Positions 5,061-12,507 of a stretch of 36,215 bases of DNA are shown here, in pieces. The translations under genes were made by a program, and so were the position numbers. The notes beneath the pieces are model-generated. The model had not been told where the DNA came from. It saw only the letters and a program-made list of their open reading frames with translations, and made no database searches. How positions within the stretch are numbered: position 1 is the first letter of the stretch; each line of letters opens with the position of its first letter. The stretch spans positions 1 through 36,215 of the IMG/VR virus record IMGVR_UViG_2579779009_000001. One strand, 5' to 3'. The DNA comes from a virus. Lineage: Duplodnaviria; Heunggongvirae; Uroviricota; Caudoviricetes.

Positions 5061-5423
5061 TTAATGACCTGCTGCGCGGAGTTTTCCGTCAGGTTCACCG
5101 GCAAGAGTCAGTAATTGTCCCTGGTCTTCCTGCAGAATAGTCAGGCGACCACCGCGATTGACATACATCGGCGTTTCGGTAGTGTCTTCTTCGGAAATTT
5201 TCCCGCGGTTAGTTGGGCGAACATATGAGAGTTTGTGTTTGATTTTCACACGGTTCTCATCAAATGGTTCAATTTCTAGGTTGAGCGAGACCTTACCTTT
5301 GGTTTTCGTGTTCATCACACCGGAAGCGACTTCACTGAGAACTGCGCCGATTTTGGTTTCAAATACGCCGCCGTCCAGCTCCCCGATAAATGCCTGCACA
5401 TCAGTACTGCGTTCGCTAGCCAT
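5061..5423 (-). CDS. Hypothetical early-left phage protein (YfdP-like by position, 120 aa)
   Basis: Start at internal ATG (MASERSTDVQAF...) with AGGAGC RBS; the upstream 106 codons of the track ORF are R/P/C-rich and lie in a structured non-coding region. Confidence 0.65.
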   Translation of the reverse strand: MASERSTDVQAFIGELDGGVFETKIGAVLSEVASGVMNTKTKGKVSLNLEIEPFDENRVKIKHKLSYVRPTNRGKISEEDTTETPMYVNRGGRLTILQEDQGQLLTLAGEPDGKLRAAGH

Positions 5424-5471
5424 TTTGCTGCTCCTCATCATATCGACCCTGCAAGGCCGATTAGTTTCTCC

Positions 5472-5560
5472 ACAAAACAGAGAAGAACACCTGCGGTGGC
5501 AGCCGCCCGGATGGATTGGGTTATGAGCCCGTCGTCCGGTGATGCTCTTCTCTGTTTTGT
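5472..5560. repeat. Long inverted repeat (15-bp perfect arms ACAAAACAGAGAAGA / TCTTCTCTGTTTTGT, ~55-nt GC-rich loop) inside an ORF-poor structured region (~5430-5760)
   Basis: Arms at 5472-5486 and 5546-5560 read directly; further hairpins downstream, e.g. GCCTGG-cgaaggttgcaca-CCAGGC (~5653-5677); no U-tract follows on either strand. Confidence 0.6.
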
Positions 5561-5860
5561 AAAAAGGACGGTACCAGCCGGAAGCAAGGGTACAAACTGG
5601 TACCGCCAGGACTACACACAGCATAAAGTTGTGGTGCCGGGTGCCTCCCGGTGCCTGGCGAAGGTTGCACACCAGGCGGGTGGGTATCCACAGAAGGTCG
5701 ACTGTCAGCCTCAACCTTAACCCGCGTGCGCTGAGCCGCATTCACCACAACGCTAAGGATTCTCTCTGGTTGAAAATACTTAGCTGTTATGTGCCTGTCT
5801 TTTCACCACTTCAGGCTCGGTGGTATCCTTTTAAGCCCGTATACATAAAAGGAAAATCAA

Positions 5861-6106
5861 ATGACTTTTGATGAAAAAGAACTTGATAATGCAATTAATA
5901 AAATCATCGTAACGTCGCTCTTTTCCTGTCTCAGCGACACTCAGCAGAAACAGTTCTACGAATCGGCTTTCAACATGATCGAGCGTTGTTGTTTCTGCGA
6001 TGCCGACGAGTTACCTGAAAAAATCAGGAAACAGTTGGCTGATGCTCTTCGAGTGCGACTTTCTGACCAATTTTCTGAAATGTGCTCTCCGAATTTGGAC
6101 AAATAG
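5861..6106 (+). CDS. Hypothetical small protein (81 aa), transcribed opposite to the early-left operon
   Basis: AAGGA RBS 7 nt upstream of ATG; protein-like composition (MTFDEKELDNAINKIIV...); 3' end overlaps the convergent minus-strand ORF 6024..6299. Confidence 0.5.
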   Translation: MTFDEKELDNAINKIIVTSLFSCLSDTQQKQFYESAFNMIERCCFCDADELPEKIRKQLADALRVRLSDQFSEMCSPNLDK

Positions 6107-6299
6107 AAAAAGGCCATTTCCATTCAGGGTCTGATGGAAATACTTCAGCCTGTTCCAAAGCACGGCGTAAAGAGAATACAACTCCAGCCATAATCTGATG
6201 TTTCCCATTGGTCCAGCTATCGCCGCTCTGATCTACAGGAGCGGCTATGTCGTATGACCAAACGATTTCACCACTATTGTTTAAAATCTGGACTTTCAT
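6024..6299 (-). CDS. Hypothetical small protein (91 aa), early-left operon
   Basis: ORF directly downstream of the ClpX-ZBD-like gene on the same strand; GGAGG upstream; 3' end overlaps the plus-strand ORF, so the true extent is uncertain. Confidence 0.45.
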   Translation of the reverse strand: MKVQILNNSGEIVWSYDIAAPVDQSGDSWTNGKHQIMAGVVFSLRRALEQAEVFPSDPEWKWPFSICPNSESTFQKIGQKVALEEHQPTVS

Positions 6300-6307
6300 T
6301 TTGTTCT

Positions 6308-6511
6308 TTAACCTCCAGATTTCCGCGCATCTAAAGGCGCATTCTCATTTGGTGTGAACTGAATAGTTGTGCTGATATTGATTAATGCTCCGACACACAA
6401 GACTACGCACTCAGAGCAGATAGCAACTTCATCTTTTCCGCCTTTGGAGATGATTTTTTTTGCCTGCAGCTCGTTTGCGCCACAAAACGAGCATGTGAAA
6501 TAACGGTTCAT
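6308..6511 (-). CDS. Standalone ClpX-type C4 zinc-finger (ZBD-like) mini-protein (~67 aa; alternative start 6529)
   Basis: TCSFCG...KKII...ICSECVVLC aligns with the ClpX N-terminal zinc-binding domain ([31 protein letters not shown]); first gene of the leftward operon after the OL-like operator. Confidence 0.65.
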   Translation of the reverse strand: MNRYFTCSFCGANELQAKKIISKGGKDEVAICSECVVLCVGALINISTTIQFTPNENAPLDARKSGG

Positions 6512-6615
6512 TTGCGCTCTCTTACACATAGTATTTAACGAATCATCCGGTCATTCATACGCCACCGGCGGCTACTTCGTGGGCGTCCTGCCTGTCCGTG
6601 ATAGCTTACATTATG

Positions 6616-6665
6616 TTGCTACTTAAAGTAGCAAAAATCAACAACAAAAAGTAGATATTTGTTGT
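6616..6665. promoter_or_regulatory. OL-like operator region (candidate PL): 19-bp perfect palindrome TTGCTACTTAAAGTAGCAA plus adjacent inverted repeat AACAACAAA...TTTGTTGTT
   Basis: The palindrome half-site CTACTTAAAGTAG recurs twice in the cI-cro intergenic region; lies between the ParA-like gene terminator and the first early-left gene. Confidence 0.6.
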
Positions 6666-6824
6666 TGTCTATGATTTTTCTATAATTAATTGAAAGTTAA
6701 ATGTTTTTGCTGATTTACTATGCTGTAAACTGAAAATATCGCACGAAGTTGGAGTAGGTATTGAGCATAGTGAATTATGAGGAGGGAGTTTTTTATGAGA
6801 TTAATCAGGGAGAAAGAAGAGTAA

Positions 6825-6846
6825 AGCCCGGTTATGCGGCCGGGCA
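6825..6846 (-). terminator. Hairpin terminator downstream of the ParA-like gene
   Basis: GC stem GCCCGG-(ttatgc)-CCGGGC just after the stop at 6853; on the minus strand it is followed by TTTACTCTTCTTTC (U/C-rich, not a pure U-tract). Confidence 0.5.
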
Positions 6847-6852
6847 CATGCA

Positions 6853-7929
6853 TTACTTTGTAAGTTCTAGAACTCGTTGAGCCAGCCCTTTAAATTGTTC
6901 GTTAAAGGCGTCTCTGCTTGATTTCATTGTATTTAAGGCATGCCCAAATTGCCCTGAATCGCGAATTTGCTGATCACTGATGGAGAAAACAGGTGTCGCT
7001 AGTTGTTGGCTTATTGCGATTAATGAGTTGAAATCGGAAATATGCGCAAGATCATAGGCTGATAAATCTCCACTGACTGTTGTTTTGTTAATTGCATGTT
7101 GCACTTTATCTCGTGGAATTATGCAGGTAATTTTTTCTAGATTTGGCACTAAGATCGAATCAACAGCATCACGGATAGCTGCCATCCATTTTTCGAAAGA
7201 TTTTACAGGTGCTCCTTTACGCGGCCTGTATCTCTGCTGAATCATACCTAGAAACTGCGGTGCATTTTTAATTGATTGTGAAGAGTTACCATCATTATTT
7301 TCTTTAAATAATGCTAATTCTTTGTGCCAGCGAGGTATATTTTTTGAGAGAGAGCGAATTGCTTGCCAGCAAAAAAAGTCTGGAGCTACAGGTACGATAA
7401 AATAGTCACTTGACATGAGAACTACTTCATTTAAACCTCCAACATTAGGGCTGAGATCATAAAGAATGTAATCAATATTATTCTTCAAGGCGATTAGCTG
7501 TAATATTTTTGGCAGGTTCCCTGGTATATTTCTTGTAGCAGGAATACCAGCAGCAATTTTTAGAGAAACACTTATCTGTGAATCTAAGTCCGAAACATCT
7601 AAATGTCCGGGAAGAAGCAGAAGGTTTTCATGCAGTGTAGGGTGTAATTTTCCCGTTTCTTTTTCAAGGTATGCTTCAGGTTGTCCGCCATTAATCAAAT
7701 ATTCTACAATAGGTCCAAGAGTTAAGTTATCTCTGCTAGAATAAAAAGAATCTAAACCCTCATCAATCTTTTCATAGCCAAGAACCATTCCTGTTAGATT
7801 ACATTGCGAATCAAGGTCAACCATCAATACTTTCTTGCCTTCATCCGCAAGTGCCCATCCAAGATTGAAGGTTGTTGTGGTTTTACTTACCCCACCTTTA
7901 TGATTAAAAAAACAAATTGATTTTGTCAT
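6853..7929 (-). CDS. ParA/MinD-family P-loop ATPase (358 aa) with extended C-terminal region; lone gene between OL and cI
   Basis: Deviant Walker A at residues 10-17 (NHKGGVSKTTTTFNLGWALADEGKKVLMVDLDSQ), Walker B-like YILYDLSP; AAGGA RBS; AT-rich by eye; same strand as and downstream of cI. No adjacent ParB-like gene. Confidence 0.8.
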   Translation of the reverse strand: MTKSICFFNHKGGVSKTTTTFNLGWALADEGKKVLMVDLDSQCNLTGMVLGYEKIDEGLDSFYSSRDNLTLGPIVEYLINGGQPEAYLEKETGKLHPTLHENLLLLPGHLDVSDLDSQISVSLKIAAGIPATRNIPGNLPKILQLIALKNNIDYILYDLSPNVGGLNEVVLMSSDYFIVPVAPDFFCWQAIRSLSKNIPRWHKELALFKENNDGNSSQSIKNAPQFLGMIQQRYRPRKGAPVKSFEKWMAAIRDAVDSILVPNLEKITCIIPRDKVQHAINKTTVSGDLSAYDLAHISDFNSLIAISQQLATPVFSISDQQIRDSGQFGHALNTMKSSRDAFNEQFKGLAQRVLELTK

Positions 7930-8099: not shown

Positions 8100-8804
8100 C
8101 TAAAGCCGGTTGTATTTAATTGATTCGTGTATCAATGCTTTGCCCATAACATAAAGTTGATCTTGGGACTTCTCATCAATGTACCATTTCTCATAGGCTG
8201 GATTATCCGAAAGAACGGCGAGTTTGTTGCCTTGCATTTGTAGACGTTTAACGTGGAACGTCTTACCATAAACGAAAGAGTAAACACCATCAGTTTGGAA
8301 GTTGCGAACAGAAATGTCGACAAACAGTCGATCTCCGGAAACTAGAGTAGGGGACATGCTGTCGCCATTTACAGTCATAACTTTAATATCATCTTGAGAA
8401 CGATTACCGAAAAGAGAACGGGCATGCTCTGTTGTGAACTCAATGGCGTAGAGCACATCAACATAGTCTGAAAGCATATAGGTCCCAGGTCCTGCGCTAA
8501 CGCTAAGATCCAAAACTTCTATCCTGTATACATCGGGTTTTGTTGGATTGGGGATGCTTGCCATTTCCTTACATCCTTCTCTCTCGCCAACACCATATTC
8601 TAAATATGAAGCTGATACCCCCAGAGCCAATGCAAGTTTATTCATGACAGAGGCACGAGGCTTCGCAGCGCCGATTGTGTATCGCCGCGCCATTTCATAT
8701 GTAACGCCCACAAGACTTTTGAGTTGGGTGACAGAAATTCCCTTGTTTGTCATTAGCTCGTTTAGTCTCTTGGCGAAATCTGGATACTTCTGTTCTTCTA
8801 CCAT
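8100..8804 (-). CDS. cI: CI-type prophage repressor (N-terminal HTH + C-terminal S24 LexA-like autopeptidase); start uncertain (8804, 8840 or 8861)
   Basis: HTH region (KRLNELMTNKGISVTQLKSLVGVTYEMARRY), S24-like C-terminus (MTVNGDSMSPTLVSGDRLFVD...KR); divergent from a cro-like gene; the 5' 57 nt of the track ORF contain operator repeats, so the 8804 start (MVEEQ...) is preferred. Confidence 0.85.
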   Translation of the reverse strand: MVEEQKYPDFAKRLNELMTNKGISVTQLKSLVGVTYEMARRYTIGAAKPRASVMNKLALALGVSASYLEYGVGEREGCKEMASIPNPTKPDVYRIEVLDLSVSAGPGTYMLSDYVDVLYAIEFTTEHARSLFGNRSQDDIKVMTVNGDSMSPTLVSGDRLFVDISVRNFQTDGVYSFVYGKTFHVKRLQMQGNKLAVLSDNPAYEKWYIDEKSQDQLYVMGKALIHESIKYNRL

Positions 8805-8842
8805 AGGTAGAAGATTACTCGCATCACATACGCTAGTCATTT

Positions 8843-8878
8843 CTATTTTAAGTAGTTGCATTTTGCTATTTTAAGTAG
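8843..8878. promoter_or_regulatory. OR-like operator repeats (two copies of CTATTTTAAGTAG) in the cI-cro divergent promoter region
   Basis: Direct read: tCTATTTTAAGTAGttgcattttgCTATTTTAAGTAGca; same half-site as the OL palindrome at 6616-6634. Confidence 0.6.
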
Positions 8879-8910
8879 CATCATCCATCTGAATTTCGGA
8901 GGAGAAAGGT

Positions 8911-10098: not shown

Positions 10099-11040
10099 AT
10101 GAGCACTAAATTAACCGGCTATGTATGGGATGGTTGCGCAGCGTCAGGCATGAAATTATCCAGCGTGGCAATTATGGCCCGCCTGGCTGATTTCAGTAAT
10201 GACGAAGGTGTGTGCTGGCCATCGATTGAAACCATTGCCCGCCAGATTGGCGCGGGGATGAGTACCGTCAGAACGGCTATCGCACGGCTGGAAGCAGAAG
10301 GCTGGTTAACGCGTAAGGCGCGTCGCCAGGGTAACCGCAATGCGTCGAATGTTTATCAGCTTAACGTTGCGAAGCTTCAGGCAGCGGCATTTTCTCAACT
10401 GTCAGATTCTGACCCGTCAAAATCTGACGCATCAAAATCTGACCCGTCAAAATTTGATGCGTCGAAATCTGGCAAAAAAGCGGGTTTTCACCCGTCAGAA
10501 TCTGGCGGGGATCCGTCAGTAAAATCAAAACATGATCCATCAGATAAAAAACCTTCTCGTCCGGACGCTTCGCAACCGGACACGCAGATGGATGAACAGG
10601 ATTTTTTAACTCGCCATCCTGATGCGGTTGTATTCAGCCCTAAAAAGCGCCAGTGGGGAACGCAGGATGATTTGACCTGCGCACAGTGGCTCTGGAAAAA
10701 AATCATCGCCCTGTACGAGCAGGCCGCCGAATGTGACGGCGAGGTGGTTCGTCCCAAAGAACCTAACTGGACAGCCTGGGCAAACGAAATTCGCCTGATG
10801 TGTGTGCAGGATGGTCGTACTCACAAACAAATCTGCGAGATGTACAGCCGCGTCAGCCGCGATCCGTTCTGGTGCCGTAACGTGCTCAGCCCGTCGAAGT
10901 TGCGGGAAAAATGGGATGAGCTTTCCCTGCGCTTATCGCCGTCCGTCAGCACGCACACAGAAAAACGCGAAGACCCGTACTTCAAAGCCAGTTACGACAA
11001 TGTGGACTACAGCCAGATCCCGGCGGGATTCAGGGGGTGA
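10099..11040 (+). CDS. Replication initiator (lambda O-like: N-terminal HTH, iteron-bearing middle, C-terminal domain)
   Basis: N-terminal HTH (ETIARQIGAGMSTVRTAIARLEAEGWL); low-complexity middle encoded by DNA iterons; position after cro/cII. Confidence 0.75.
   Translation: MSTKLTGYVWDGCAASGMKLSSVAIMARLADFSNDEGVCWPSIETIARQIGAGMSTVRTAIARLEAEGWLTRKARRQGNRNASNVYQLNVAKLQAAAFSQLSDSDPSKSDASKSDPSKFDASKSGKKAGFHPSESGGDPSVKSKHDPSDKKPSRPDASQPDTQMDEQDFLTRHPDAVVFSPKKRQWGTQDDLTCAQWLWKKIIALYEQAAECDGEVVRPKEPNWTAWANEIRLMCVQDGRTHKQICEMYSRVSRDPFWCRNVLSPSKLREKWDELSLRLSPSVSTHTEKREDPYFKASYDNVDYSQIPAGFRG
10401..10553. repeat. Iteron array plus adjacent A+T-rich tract (candidate phage origin) inside the replication initiator gene
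   Basis: At least six ~12-15-bp direct repeats of the form (C)CGTCAAAATCTGAC, followed by aaaatcaaaacatgatccatcagataaaaaa; encodes the DPSKSDASKSDPSKFDASKS repeat. Confidence 0.7.
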
Positions 11041-11531: not shown

Positions 11532-12184
11532 TGAGTAATAAATATTGCCAGGCGCTGGTGGAACTGCGGAACAAACCAGCCCATGAACTGAAGGAAGTGG
11601 GCGATCAGTGGCGCACGCCGGATAACATTTTCTGGGGAATTAACACCCTGTTTGGCCCGTTTGTTCTGGATCTGTTCACTGACGGTGATAACGCCAAATG
11701 TGCTGCGTATTACACGGCGGAAGACAACGCGCTGGCGCATGACTGGTCAGAACGTCTTGCGGAGCTTAAAGGTGCTGCCTTTGGTAATCCCCCATACAGC
11801 CGCGCCAGTCAGCATGAGGGGCAATATATCACAGGCATGCGTTACATCATGAAGCATGCCAGTGCCATGCGTGATAAAGGTGGGCGCTATGTTTTCCTGA
11901 TCAAAGCTGCCACCAGCGAAGTGTGGTGGCCGGAAGATGCAGATCATATTGCTTTTATTCGCGGGCGTATCGGTTTTGAACTGCCTGCCTGGTTTATCCC
12001 GAAGGATGGGAAGCAGGTGCCGACAGGCGCTTTCTTCGCTGGTGCTATTGCTGTTTTCGACAAGACCTGGAAGGGACCGGCAATCAGCTACATCGGGCGC
12101 GATGAACTTGAGGCATGTGGTGAGGCCTTTCTGGCGCAGGTTCGCCTGCAGGCAGAAAAACTGGTCAGGGAGATGGCGGCATGA
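11531..12184 (+). CDS. Phage N6-adenine DNA methyltransferase (Dam-like)
   Basis: NPPY catalytic motif (AAFGNPPYSRASQ); start ATG overlaps the upstream stop (TAATG). Confidence 0.8.
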   Translation: MSNKYCQALVELRNKPAHELKEVGDQWRTPDNIFWGINTLFGPFVLDLFTDGDNAKCAAYYTAEDNALAHDWSERLAELKGAAFGNPPYSRASQHEGQYITGMRYIMKHASAMRDKGGRYVFLIKAATSEVWWPEDADHIAFIRGRIGFELPAWFIPKDGKQVPTGAFFAGAIAVFDKTWKGPAISYIGRDELEACGEAFLAQVRLQAEKLVREMAA

Positions 12185-12507
12185 CGAAGTTAACTCAATG
12201 CCAGCAGCAGGTGCTGGATATGCTGATTTCTTATCAGAAAGAACGTGGCTTCCCGCCAACCAATCAGGAAGTGGCAACGATGCTGGGATACCGTTCGGTG
12301 AATGCAGCGGTGGAGCATCTTCGCGCACTGGAGAAAAAAGGCGTCATCACGATAAAGCGTGGTGTGGCCCGGGGGATCACGCTTCATACCGCGGTGAAGG
12401 ACGACGACAGCGAGGCGGTCGGGATTATCCGCTCACTGCTTGCCGGTGAGGAAAACGCAAGGCTGCGTGCAACTCACTGGTTACATGAGAGAGGCCTGAA
12501 AGTATGA
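12181..12507 (+). CDS. LexA N-terminal DNA-binding-domain-only protein (108 aa, no S24 peptidase domain)
   Basis: Aligns along the whole LexA DBD: LTQCQQQVLDMLISYQKERGFPPTNQEVATMLGYRSVNAAVEHLRALEKKGVI vs E. coli LexA [53 protein letters not shown]; ends after ~35 further residues. Confidence 0.75.
   Translation: MTKLTQCQQQVLDMLISYQKERGFPPTNQEVATMLGYRSVNAAVEHLRALEKKGVITIKRGVARGITLHTAVKDDDSEAVGIIRSLLAGEENARLRATHWLHERGLKV

What the first reader, a model, noticed from the sequence alone, without database searches (positions are those of the whole stretch)
6308..6529. Standalone ClpX zinc-finger (ZBD)-like mini-protein as the first early-left gene
The ~67-aa ORF aligns motif-for-motif with the N-terminal C4 zinc-binding domain of ClpX (CSFCG...K.I...ICSECV.LC) but has no AAA+ module. 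In ClpX this domain dimerises and binds adaptors and substrates; lambda O is a classic ClpXP substrate. A free copy expressed first from PL could compete for ClpX substrates or adaptors, or heterodimerise with host ClpX ZBDs, stabilising phage proteins such as the O-like initiator encoded here. That would be a host-takeover mechanism by protease-receptor mimicry.
Basis: partly seen in the sequence, partly recalled or inferred. Interest (0 to 1): 0.55.

Follow-up and report, generated by a model that had tools for sequence, protein, structure and literature searches.

The report
Phage early gene: lone ClpX zinc-finger
A small prophage gene really does encode a free-standing copy of the zinc-binding "docking" domain of the host ClpX protease, placed first in the repressor-controlled early-left operon; it may blunt part of ClpXP's activity, but that is untested, and just upstream lies an undescribed conserved structured RNA that may be the more novel feature.

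Summary
Window 6308-6529 (-) is a real gene under purifying selection; its likely start is ATG 6511, giving 67 aa. Residues 5-46 match Pfam zf-C4_ClpX above the curated cut-off. The AlphaFold model superposes on the E. coli ClpX zinc-binding domain (ZBD) at 1.3 A. There is no AAA+ module. RefSeq already names it "ClpX C4-type zinc finger protein", so the domain call is not new.

Its position is also confirmed. It is the first cistron after an OL/PL-like operator-promoter in an SfV/e14-like prophage, and it sits beside many different repressor alleles in 80 related contigs. It is optional: SfV lacks it, and the slot holds dozens of other small genes in related phages.

The proposed mechanism, a decoy for the ClpX docking domain, is plausible. 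Free ClpX ZBD inhibits adaptor-dependent ClpXP degradation in vitro. It is not demonstrated here. The phage domain differs from ClpX at several conserved positions, groups with other stand-alone ZBDs, and the replication initiator here is not a lambda O homologue.

The gene lies 22 nt downstream of a 72-nt structured RNA at the 5' end of the early-left transcript. It has two covarying helices, no Rfam match, and occurs in about 25% of complete E. coli genomes, including K-12 e14.

The parts
6308..6511 (-). Stand-alone ZBD gene, most likely reading frame (67 aa plus stop): MNRYFTCSFCGANELQAKKIISKGGKDEVAICSECVVLCVGALINISTTIQFTPNENAPLDARKSGG
   Evidence: ORF list. Pfam zf-C4_ClpX 40.7 bits against cut-off 27. 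The 67-aa form dominates the database. Purifying selection. RefSeq names it 'ClpX C4-type zinc finger protein'.
6512..6529 (-). Six extra N-terminal codons (MCKRAQ) of the longest ORF, the 73-aa form annotated by PGAP; probably not translated
   Evidence: There is no Shine-Dalgarno sequence upstream of ATG 6529, which lies 4 nt from the 3' end of the leader RNA match. The 67-aa form is the majority.
6374..6499 (-). Treble-clef C4 zinc-binding domain: residues 5-46 of the 67-aa protein, with Cys 7, 10, 32 and 35 and the C-terminal helix 33-49
   Evidence: Pfam match. AF2 model. Foldseek to 2ds5/2ds6/2ds8 at rmsd 1.3 A. Invariant C7, F9, C10, I31, C32, C35 and C39.
6311..6373 (-). C-terminal tail (residues 47-67). 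It is predicted disordered and differs between allele classes; other alleles replace it with 60-70-aa extensions.
   Evidence: pLDDT below 50 for residues 52-67. Allele list. The extensions match only PHROGs of unknown function.
6517..6523 (-). Shine-Dalgarno-like AAGAGAG, 5 nt upstream of ATG 6511
   Evidence: Read directly from the sequence.
6533..6604 (-). Conserved structured leader RNA at the 5' end of the early-left transcript.
- P1: 6595-6600 pairs with 6537-6542.
- An invariant strand: AGGCAGGACGCCCACGAAGUAGCCGCC.
- P2: 6564-6568 pairs with 6547-6551, with loop GGCGUAUGAAUG.
   Evidence: Covariance model R1 scores 85.2 bits, E 2.9e-25, and finds this single copy in the window. Covariation counts. 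No Rfam family matches.
6610..6615 (-). Probable -10 hexamer (CATAAT) of the PL-like promoter. The -35 is ambiguous: TTGATT lies 20 nt upstream, and an alternative reading is TTGATT-17-CAACAT.
   Evidence: It aligns with the -10 of the SfV promoter TTGACA-16-CATAAT and of several other immunity types. The simple consensus scan did not call it.
6613..6658 (.). OL-like operator region, including the 19-bp palindrome TTGCTACTTAAAGTAGCAA (6616-6634)
   Evidence: 46 nt, 80% complementary to 8839-8884 in the cI-cro intergenic region (repeats I1, D4 and I9).
6826..6845 (-). Intrinsic-terminator-like hairpin that ends the cI/ParA-like transcription unit upstream of OL/PL
   Evidence: Terminator scan: a 6-bp all-GC stem followed by a T-rich tail.
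6853..7929 (-). ParA/AAA_31-like ATPase gene between the repressor gene and OL (the position rexAB holds in lambda). It is context, not part of the early-left operon.
   Evidence: Pfam AAA_31 at 2.4e-29. PHROG 164. Only a weak PADLOC PDC-M28B match.
8100..8804 (-). CI-type repressor (HTH_3 plus Peptidase_S24)
   Evidence: Pfam. PGAP start as in EC11.
8839..8884 (.). OR-like operators between the repressor gene and the cro-like gene
   Evidence: Repeats D10 and D18, plus I1 against the OL region. Sequence.
6024..6299 (-). Second cistron of the early-left operon (91 aa; SfV orf33 / phrog_3195, function unknown). Its GGAGG ribosome-binding site lies in the last codons of the ZBD gene.

Best explanation
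Shown:
- The gene encodes a 67-aa protein: one ClpX-type C4 treble-clef zinc-binding domain followed by a short disordered tail.
- It is the first cistron of the repressor-controlled early-left operon of an SfV/e14-like prophage integrated next to tRNA-Thr in E. coli.
- It is therefore made immediately on induction or infection and is silent in the lysogen.
- It is an optional cargo gene. It sits in a hypervariable first slot just downstream of a conserved structured leader RNA.

Inferred, and the mechanism I think most likely:
- Like the isolated ClpX N-domain, the protein dimerises and presents a hydrophobic docking surface.
- It then competes with the N-domains of host ClpX for docking motifs of adaptors (SspB- or RssB-type XB-like motifs) or of N-domain-dependent substrates. 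Alternatively it may pair with newly made ClpX N-domains.
- This would selectively weaken the N-domain-dependent branch of ClpXP proteolysis early in the lytic programme.
- Pore-recognised, ssrA-like degrons would be unaffected. That includes repressor or LexA fragments whose removal helps induction (my inference from general knowledge of those degrons).
- In effect it would work like lambda cIII (an FtsH inhibitor), T4 PinA or T7 gp4.5 (Lon inhibitors; these three from my own knowledge), but by copying the protease's receptor domain.
- Which phage or host protein is protected is unknown.
For: - Domain identity by profile, sequence and fold.
- The ClpX-conserved F16 equivalent (F9) and the CSFCG / ICxxC motifs are invariant in the family.
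- Immediate-early position behind OL/PL, kept next to at least 8 different immunity types.
- Strong purifying selection on the domain.
- More distant stand-alone ZBD genes also sit in phage early or immunity regions. Examples are a Mu-like phage, directly downstream of the repressor gene, two high-GC prophages, directly after cro, and cassettes of small phage ORFs.
- Published biochemistry: free ClpX ZBD at 5-20 uM inhibits RssB-mediated sigma-S degradation by 0.6 uM ClpXP (PMC7226468). The ZBD is required for lambda O degradation, and its F16/I46 pocket is the shared docking region for lambda O, SspB, RssB and trigger factor (PMC7804408).
- The same slot holds a host-takeover gene in another phage: a Kil-like protein, phrog_294.
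Against: - No interaction was or could be tested here.
- The phage domain is only 29-37% identical to the E. coli ZBD.
- It carries a 3-residue KGG insertion. It replaces ClpX Y34 with an invariant Ala. The positions equivalent to ClpX L42 and I46 vary (L/R/S/T/A/Q/K and A/T/V/I/K/L), so the docking pocket may differ.
- Its nearest relatives are other stand-alone or tandem ZBD proteins, some fused to unrelated enzymes such as an OTCase. The domain is therefore a general protein-binding and dimerisation module, not a marker of ClpX biology.
- Some alleles carry an extra 60-70-aa C-terminal region. That suggests the ZBD may simply be a scaffold for another activity.
- The gene is dispensable (SfV) and is frameshifted in several prophages.
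- The initiator encoded here is not a lambda O homologue.
- In vitro competition needed roughly a 10-30-fold excess of ZBD over ClpXP (PMC7226468).
Confidence: 0.38

Rival explanations
1. The ZBD is a generic zinc-stabilised dimerisation and peptide-binding module, and the protein acts on something other than ClpX. The partner would be a host or phage protein relevant to takeover, to the lysis-lysogeny switch or to counter-defence. The ClpX resemblance would reflect common ancestry of the fold only.
For: - Hundreds of stand-alone, tandem (2-4 copies) and fused ZBD proteins exist outside ClpX.
- The family is closer to those than to ClpX.
- ClpX pocket positions are not conserved.
- The slot is a hypervariable cargo site holding dozens of unrelated small proteins.
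- Distant ZBD genes sit right beside repressor or cro genes, which fits a role in the switch itself.
Against: - ClpX is the only biochemically characterised context of this domain in the literature I could reach.
- F16, part of the ClpX docking pocket, is invariant in the family.
- No alternative partner is suggested by any data here.
Confidence: 0.38
2. The protein is a hijacking adaptor rather than an inhibitor. Its ZBD pairs with a ClpX N-domain, or occupies its place on the hexamer, and the tail or C-terminal extension brings a chosen host or phage protein to ClpXP for destruction.
For: - The architecture is modular. A conserved ZBD is followed by allele-specific tails of 15-75 residues (61-67, 112 and 121-aa alleles).
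- ClpX N-domains function as dimers, and adaptors act by tethering (PMC7804408, PMC7226468).
Against: - The window's allele has only a 20-residue disordered tail with no recognisable motif.
- ClpX ZBD dimers are reported as constitutive (Pfam description, recalled from my own knowledge), so exchange into existing hexamers is doubtful.
- Nothing here identifies a target.
Confidence: 0.12
3. The protein is a nucleic-acid- or RNA-polymerase-binding zinc ribbon that regulates early transcription. For example, it could act together with the conserved leader RNA in place of an N-type antiterminator.
For: - It occupies the position that N holds in lambda.
- No N homologue was seen among the early-region proteins scanned.
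- Treble-clef fingers can bind nucleic acids (general knowledge).
Against: - The leader RNA is constant while the ZBD gene is present in only about 5 of 80 motif-bearing loci sampled. It is absent from SfV, which has the same downstream genes.
- An essential transcription factor would not be optional.
- There is no basic or DNA-binding signature, and the fold match is specifically to the protein-binding ClpX ZBD.
Confidence: 0.07
4. It is a chance ORF or a decaying remnant with no function.
For: Frameshifted copies exist (L047-L051; 203-bp copies with no CDS annotated in some E. coli genomes), and SfV lacks the gene.
Against: - dN is far below dS across allele classes with saturated synonymous sites.
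- All zinc ligands are invariant.
- The position is conserved.
- The Pfam score is above the curated threshold.
Confidence: 0.02

Closest known systems
[quoted passage not shown]
   Same: - CxxC...CxxC treble-clef fold followed by a helix.
- The CSFCG and ICxEC motifs.
- F16 and I35 equivalents are invariant.
- The model superposes at rmsd 1.3 A.
   Different: - No AAA+ module.
- 29-37% identity.
- A KGG insertion in the hairpin loop.
- Y34 replaced by Ala; L42 and I46 equivalents not conserved.
- Encoded by a phage as a separate early protein.
Phage-encoded inhibitors of host AAA+ proteases: lambda cIII (FtsH), T4 PinA and T7 gp4.5 (Lon). Recalled from my own knowledge.
   Same: A small protein made early from a phage early operon (cIII from PL). 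The proposed outcome is to spare selected proteins from a host ATP-dependent protease.
   Different: - No sequence relationship: no Pfam family other than zf-C4_ClpX passes threshold.
- The target would be ClpXP.
- The means would be mimicry of the protease's own receptor domain, not acting as a substrate or active-site competitor.
- The function is unproven here.
Isolated ClpX ZBD used as a competitor in vitro (PMC7226468; also Wojtyra et al. 2003, JBC 278:48981, listed as reference 25 of PMC7804408; I could not read it)
   Same: A free ZBD dimer titrates RssB and so blocks adaptor-dependent degradation. This is the same principle as the proposed natural decoy.
   Different: It is a laboratory fragment of ClpX itself, used in large molar excess. 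The phage protein is a diverged homologue whose binding specificity is unknown.
ClpXP anti-adaptors IraD, IraM and IraP
   Same: Small proteins that protect a ClpXP substrate by blocking adaptor docking (PMC7226468, PMC6546054 abstract).
   Different: They are unrelated in sequence and bind RssB through other surfaces. They are host stress-response genes; iraM lies just outside the annotated e14 prophage in K-12.
HK022 put RNAs (cis-acting antiterminator RNAs just downstream of PL and PR; recalled from my own knowledge). This is the closest analogue for the leader RNA, not for the protein.
   Same: A promoter-proximal structured RNA of about 70 nt at the start of an early operon in a lambdoid phage without a recognisable N.
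   Different: - Only one copy here, on the left operon, with none after PR.
- HK022 is not among the 53 phage records matching the element.
- The element also occurs in virulent T5-like and Drulisvirus phages.
- Its function is untested.

Membership tests
Pfam PF06689 zf-C4_ClpX (ClpX-type zinc-binding domain) | Profile match above the curated gathering score | tested here: met
   40.7 bits against 27, E 2.2e-10. 11 of the 13 alignment-fitted distant hits that were scanned also match: PF06689 was found in the six scanned directly and recorded for P0101, P0040, P0074, P0038 and P0131.
Pfam PF06689 zf-C4_ClpX (ClpX-type zinc-binding domain) | Four zinc-ligand cysteines in CxxC...CxxC spacing | tested here: met
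   C7, C10, C32 and C35 are invariant in 17 aligned sequences, including E. coli ClpX.
Pfam PF06689 zf-C4_ClpX (ClpX-type zinc-binding domain) | Treble-clef fold with C-terminal helix, superposable on the solved ZBD | tested here: met
   AF2 model with pLDDT 75-87 over residues 1-50. Foldseek matches to 2ds5/2ds6/2ds8 at target-normalised TM 0.81-0.86, rmsd 1.3 A, probability 1.00.
Pfam PF06689 zf-C4_ClpX (ClpX-type zinc-binding domain) | Binds zinc and forms a constitutive dimer | not testable with these tools
No metal or oligomer prediction was available.
ClpX AAA+ unfoldase (NCBIfam TIGR00382 / NF003745) | AAA+ ATPase module with pore loops and an IGF loop; full-length equivalog score | tested here: not met
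   The protein is 67 aa. Equivalog scores are 25.1 and 21.5 bits against cut-offs of 359 and 371.
ClpX N-domain docking function (binding of the SspB XB tail, RssB, lambda O) | Conserved hydrophobic pocket including F16 and I46 (PMC7804408) | tested here: inconclusive
   The F16 equivalent (F9) is invariant. The I46 equivalent is A42 here and varies in the family, while the neighbouring L43 is conserved as L/M/I. Binding itself was not testable.
Lambdoid early-left (PL) operon, first gene | Lies directly downstream of a promoter overlapped by operators that also occur at the cI-cro (OR) region, on the strand leading away from the repressor gene | tested here: met
   OL-like 6613-6658 matches OR-like 8839-8884. 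The -10 aligns with the SfV promoter. No ORF lies between the promoter and the gene. The same layout is seen in 80 loci. Transcription itself was not measured.
Phage protease inhibitors (lambda cIII family) | Sequence homology to cIII or another known inhibitor | tested here: not met
   No Pfam family other than zf-C4_ClpX reaches threshold at E <= 1. PHROG hits have unknown function, or are labelled 'protease' only by ZBD similarity.
Rfam families (for the leader RNA at 6533-6604) | Match to any of the 4227 covariance models | tested here: not met
   Gathering-threshold scan of the whole window: only a tRNA. Permissive scan of 6250-6900: nothing on the element.
HK022 put-type antiterminator RNA (for the leader RNA) | Paired copies just downstream of both early promoters (putL and putR) | tested here: not met
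   The covariance model with filters off finds a single copy in 36 kb; the next best hit scores 13 bits.

The most novel reading that the evidence does not exclude
There are two linked novelties.

1. The mini-protein would be a natural receptor-domain decoy. It would selectively blind the N-domain/adaptor-dependent branch of host ClpXP at the very start of the lytic programme. That would be a new way for a virus to reprogramme a AAA+ protease. Relatives in Mu-like and other temperate phages may use the same trick beside their immunity switches.

2. The 72-nt structured RNA that precedes it would be a new class of promoter-proximal phage RNA. It acts on a conserved host machine (RNA polymerase, Rho, RNase E or the ribosome) and marks a hypervariable cargo slot for takeover and counter-defence genes. 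It is found in temperate lambdoids and in virulent T5-like and Drulisvirus phages.
Probability: 0.3. Interest if true: 0.75.

Novelty: new member of a known kind. Interest (0 to 1): 0.48.

Why it matters
If the decoy idea holds, this would be, to my knowledge, the first natural inhibitor that works by copying ClpX's own docking domain. It would show how a temperate phage can protect N-domain-dependent ClpXP substrates, such as replication or regulatory proteins or antitoxins of abortive-infection systems, while leaving bulk ClpXP activity intact. It would also give a compact genetic tool for separating adaptor-dependent from adaptor-independent ClpXP proteolysis in vivo.

Independently, the leader RNA is a widespread, strongly covarying and unannotated element. 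It is in about a quarter of complete E. coli genomes and in laboratory K-12 (e14). It sits at the first nucleotides of phage early transcripts, so working out what it does could explain how N-less lambdoid phages control their early-left operons.

If the decoy idea fails, the finding is an ordinary accessory phage gene with a domain annotation that is already public.

Tried and rejected
- **YdaE of the Rac prophage** (a zinc-binding protein next to kilR) as a relative. Rejected: the Cys/His pattern is different and there is no similarity.
- **KilS sRNA of Rac** as a homologue of the leader. Rejected: no similarity, and the covariance model finds nothing in Rac.
- **Single-sequence MFE fold of the leader.** It was not better than shuffles (z -0.46), and its central stem is broken by common G-to-A variants. 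It is superseded by the covariation-supported P1/P2 structure.
- **A 7-codon mini-ORF (MNDRMIR) inside the leader.** Considered and rejected: the first ATG is lost in one allele class, and base-pair covariation explains the variation.
- **A put-like pair of elements.** Rejected: there is only one copy.
- **AF2 of the 121-aa allele (P0016) without an alignment.** pLDDT was 44, so it was unusable and no fold search was done.
- **The classic ZBD papers** (Wojtyra 2003, Thibault 2006, Park 2007). They are not held in the library, so the XB-contact residue list could not be checked. Only F16 and I46 come from a readable source (PMC7804408).
- **Nine completed literature searches on the protein or the leader RNA.** None turned up a paper on a phage stand-alone ZBD or on the leader sequence. 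A tenth search concerned the KilS sRNA.
- **First pattern scan for the RNA core.** It returned 0 hits because I mis-spaced the pattern; this was corrected.
- **PADLOC.** It gave nothing for the ZBD or its neighbours, and only a weak hit for the ParA-like gene.
Full report
**1. What is at the coordinates**

Window 6308..6529 (minus strand) is an open reading frame of 73 codons from ATG 6529, or 67 codons from ATG 6511. ATG 6511 is preceded by AAGAGAG (6517-6523). ATG 6529 has no ribosome-binding site and lies 4 nt from the end of a structured RNA. The 67-aa form is the one found in most database entries (P0001, 126 member sequences), so I take 6308-6511 as the gene. RefSeq's PGAP annotates the 73-aa form as 'ClpX C4-type zinc finger protein' (WP_306414814.1). 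The domain assignment is therefore already public.

**2. Domain identity**

- Pfam zf-C4_ClpX matches at 40.7 bits against a curated cut-off of 27 (E 2.2e-10).
- The best solved-structure sequence matches are all ClpX: the E. coli ZBD fragments 2ds5 and 1ovx at E 3e-4, then full-length ClpX chains.
- An AlphaFold2 model built on an alignment of 10 family members has pLDDT 75-87 over residues 1-50 and a disordered tail.
- Foldseek against the PDB returns ClpX as the top seven hits: one integrative full-length CLPX-CLPP model, then six ZBD crystal chains with target-normalised TM 0.81-0.86, rmsd 1.3-1.4 A and probability 1.00. The E-values are only 0.011-0.17 because the domain is so short.
- All four cysteines, plus F9 and I31 (F16 and I35 of ClpX), are invariant in an alignment of 16 stand-alone relatives with E. 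coli ClpX.
- There is no AAA+ module: the NCBIfam ClpX equivalogs score 25 bits against 359.
- The ORF is under purifying selection. Between allele classes dN is about 0.2-0.25 while synonymous sites are saturated, and omega is 0.09-0.30 where computable.

**3. Genomic setting**

The window is an SfV/e14-like prophage next to a tRNA gene that RefSeq annotates as tRNA-Thr in the near-identical E. coli EC11 locus.

Reading leftward, the elements are:
- a CI-type repressor gene (8804-8100; HTH_3 plus Peptidase_S24);
- a ParA/AAA_31-like ATPase gene (7929-6853);
- a GC-rich terminator hairpin (6845-6826);
- an operator-like region (6613-6658);
- a -10 CATAAT (6615-6610);
- a roughly 95-nt leader;
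- the ZBD gene;
- 8 nt later, the homologue of SfV orf33 (6299-6024).

The operator-like region contains the palindrome TTGCTACTTAAAGTAGCAA. It is 80% complementary over 46 nt to the repeated operators between the repressor and cro-like genes (8839-8884). The -10 aligns with the TTGACA-16-CATAAT promoter of SfV.

In 80 IMG/VR contigs that carry a relative of the gene, it always lies a few hundred bases to about 1.8 kb downstream of a repressor gene. Those repressors are only 27-100% identical to the one here. The promoter/operator DNA falls into at least eight unrelated types.

'First early-left gene' is thus well supported by sequence logic, although transcription itself was not measured.

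**4. The gene is optional cargo**

- SfV has the same promoter -10, leader and downstream gene but lacks the ZBD ORF cleanly.
- Five IMG/VR contigs carry frameshifted copies, and some E. coli genomes carry 203-bp copies with no CDS annotated over them.
- The gene is in 98 of 5,426 complete E. coli genomes.
- Among 80 phage contigs chosen only for having the leader RNA, the first ORF after the leader belongs to more than 50 different protein types. About five are ZBD proteins. Others include a Kil-like septation inhibitor and a recurrent 40-residue 'MIDFARKP' peptide of unknown function.

**5. Family breadth**

An exhaustive HMMER search of 1.84 billion representatives gave 129 significant hits. 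They are:
- close stand-alone relatives of 60-120 aa;
- many proteins with two to four tandem ZBDs;
- fusions, for example to an ornithine/aspartate carbamoyltransferase.

Hardly any have ClpX length, so the phage family is not a recent capture of host clpX.

Within the close family, the ZBD module is conserved and the C-terminus is not. Alleles of 61-67 aa have short tails. Alleles of 112 and 121 aa add 60-70 residues that match only PHROGs of unknown function.

More distant stand-alone ZBD genes are again in phage early or immunity regions:
- directly downstream of the repressor gene of a Mu-like element with MuA/MuB-type genes;
- directly after cro in two high-GC prophages;
- within runs of small overlapping phage ORFs.

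**6. Mechanism**

[quoted passage not shown] Its F16/I46 hydrophobic pocket overlaps the lambda O site, and SspB and RssB bind the same hydrophobic region (PMC7804408). Isolated ZBD added in trans at 5-20 uM inhibits RssB-dependent sigma-S turnover by 0.6 uM ClpXP (PMC7226468). A phage-made free ZBD could therefore act as a decoy for adaptors or N-domain-dependent substrates. It would spare pore-recognised degrons; that selectivity is my inference. It would also be compatible with the reported need for ClpX to remove cleaved repressor during induction in another system (PMC10584840, abstract).

*Evidence against.*
- Identity to the E. coli ZBD is 29-37%.
- There is a KGG insertion.
- The Y34 equivalent is an invariant Ala.
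- The L42 and I46 equivalents are not conserved.
- The domain clearly has non-ClpX lives.
- The replication initiator here (10099-11040) is an HTH_36/DnaD_N-like protein, not a lambda O homologue. Its N-terminus MSTKLTGY is not the lambda O degron.

*Weighting.* I put the ClpX-decoy reading at about 0.38, and a ClpX-independent protein-binding role at about the same. A ClpXP-hijacking adaptor gets about 0.12; the modular tails are its best argument. A transcription or RNA-binding role gets about 0.07. That last role is unlikely because the gene is optional while the leader RNA is constant. No function is excluded by the selection data.

**7. The leader RNA (outside the finding, found while checking 'first gene')**

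*Conservation.* The 60-70 nt between the -10 and the ZBD start are almost invariant across all immunity types and all three ZBD allele classes, even though the coding sequence downstream has saturated synonymous divergence. BLAST finds the element unannotated in 53 phage records from Escherichia, Salmonella, Shigella, Klebsiella, Yersinia, Pectobacterium, Pantoea, Citrobacter, Aeromonas and Providencia. These include virulent T5-like phages and a Drulisvirus. In every temperate phage whose record annotates a repressor-type gene beside the match, the element lies 50-190 nt after that gene's stop and ahead of the first early-left ORF; several other records carry no usable annotation there.

*Structure.* A 21-sequence alignment shows:
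- an outer helix P1, for example ACGGA/TTCGT, AGCGAA/TTCGCT, GTCATC/GATGAC, CCACC/GGTGG, GGAAC/GTTCC, TTCGG/CCGAA;
- an inner 5-bp helix P2, for example CCGGT/ACCGG, CCTGG/CCAGG, CTACC/GGTAG, CCAGT/ACTGG, CCCGA/TCGGG, CCGAC/GTCGG;
- between them, an invariant strand AGGCAGGACGCCCACGAAGUAGCCGCC;
- a conserved P2 loop GGCRUAYGAA.

*Pair counts.*
- On the 21 sequences: 89.6% of cells paired (shuffles 62.9 +/- 2.2, 0 of 500 as high). Ten of 11 pairs have changes on both sides. The covariation score is 0.683, against 0.195 for shuffles and at most 0.19 for slid registers.
- On 71 distinct sequences aligned with a covariance model: 94% paired, 11 of 11 pairs compensatory, score 0.743 against 0.188. 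This second alignment is fitted to the model and so leans towards it.

*Distribution.*
- No Rfam 15 family matches, and no paper in the library contains the core sequence in a relevant context.
- The model finds one copy in the window (6533-6604, 85 bits). There is none after PR, so the arrangement is not put-like in layout.
- It is in 1,356 of 5,426 complete E. coli genomes, with no annotated feature under the match in any of the ten records listed.
- It is in the e14 prophage of K-12 MG1655, between ymfK and ymfJ (NC_000913.3 1,202,108-1,202,180, minus strand).

*Function.* Its function is unknown. A cis-acting role on transcription elongation, Rho, RNA stability or translation of the variable first cistron is my guess.

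**8. Novelty and verdict**

The domain call is correct but already annotated. The position call is correct. The mechanism is a reasonable and testable hypothesis with in-vitro precedent, but it has no direct support and several sequence-level caveats. I file the protein as a new (uncharacterised) member of a known domain family, used as a phage immediate-early accessory gene. Interest is moderate for the protein. The leader RNA deserves its own follow-up and may be the more novel feature of this locus.

Noticed in passing
window 6533-6604 (-): A 72-nt structured RNA lies at the 5' end of the early-left transcript. It has two covarying helices (P1, P2), an invariant 27-nt strand and a conserved P2 loop. 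Pair counts: 94% paired and 11 of 11 pairs compensatory on 71 distinct sequences. There is no Rfam family and no relevant literature hit. It occurs in at least 120 IMG/VR contigs, 53 GenBank phage records (temperate lambdoids, T5-like Providencia phages, Drulisvirus Minorna) and 1,356 of 5,426 complete E. coli genomes.
   Followed up: yes
L229 6109-6181 (-) = NC_000913.3 1,202,108-1,202,180: The same RNA motif is present, unannotated, in the e14 prophage of E. coli K-12 MG1655 between ymfK (repressor) and ymfJ (71.5 bits). It can therefore be studied in the standard laboratory strain and in existing transcriptome data.
   Followed up: partly
L109-L188 (first ORF after the RNA motif): The first cistron after the leader RNA is a hypervariable cargo slot, with more than 50 protein types in 80 loci. 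They include ZBD proteins (about 5), a Kil-like septation inhibitor (phrog_294) and a recurrent 38-40-aa peptide MIDFARKP...LAQKGNP (phrog_22279/31129, function unknown).
   Followed up: partly
window 6853-7929 (-): A ParA/AAA_31-like ATPase gene sits between the repressor gene and OL, with its own terminator. This is the position of rexAB in lambda, so it is probably expressed in the lysogen and is a candidate exclusion or defence gene. It gives only a weak PADLOC match to PDC-M28B. Other immunity types have other inserts there.
   Followed up: partly
window 12181-12507 (+): A 108-aa protein consists of a LexA DNA-binding domain only (PF01726, 1.2e-19), with no S24 peptidase domain. It would be a non-cleavable LexA-like protein in the early-right operon, equivalent to SfV orf42.
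   Followed up: no
L057-L062 and L064-L083 (ZBD at about 5001): Some ZBD alleles have an extra C-terminal region. The 112-aa and 121-aa proteins have ends that match only phrog_28225 and phrog_20296 (function unknown), so the ZBD can be an N-terminal module of a larger protein. Single-sequence AF2 of the 121-aa form was uninformative.
   Followed up: partly
L047-L051; E. coli hits H60-H66 and H69: Some prophages carry frameshifted ZBD genes (a 1-nt deletion giving a 35-aa product). These include several complete E. coli genomes where RefSeq annotates no CDS under the match.
   Followed up: partly
L086 5001-5198; L090 5944-6492; L091 5917-6222: Distant stand-alone ZBD proteins lie next to other immunity switches. 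One is just downstream of the repressor gene of a Mu-like element (MuA/MuB-type genes are on the other strand). Two are directly after cro in high-GC prophages. The leader RNA motif is absent from these.
   Followed up: partly
window 5861-6106 (+) and 6024-6299 (-): Two convergent ORFs overlap by 83 nt, and both hit PHROG families strongly (phrog_3311 at 1e-55; phrog_3195 at 2e-63). RefSeq and the SfV record annotate only the minus-strand one. Whether the plus-strand 81-aa ORF is real is unresolved.
   Followed up: no
P0013, P0019, P0021, P0026, P0044 (one search hits): Many metagenomic proteins consist of 2-4 tandem ClpX-type ZBDs, or of ZBDs fused to enzymes such as an OTCase. One two-ZBD protein sits next to a C39 peptidase and a YkuD gene, which is not a phage context.
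   Followed up: no
window 5061-5741 (-): The longest ORF is 226 aa, but only its C-terminal ~125 residues match a phage family (phrog_204). The real gene probably starts near 5441, leaving about 420 nt of unassigned sequence before 5861.
   Followed up: no
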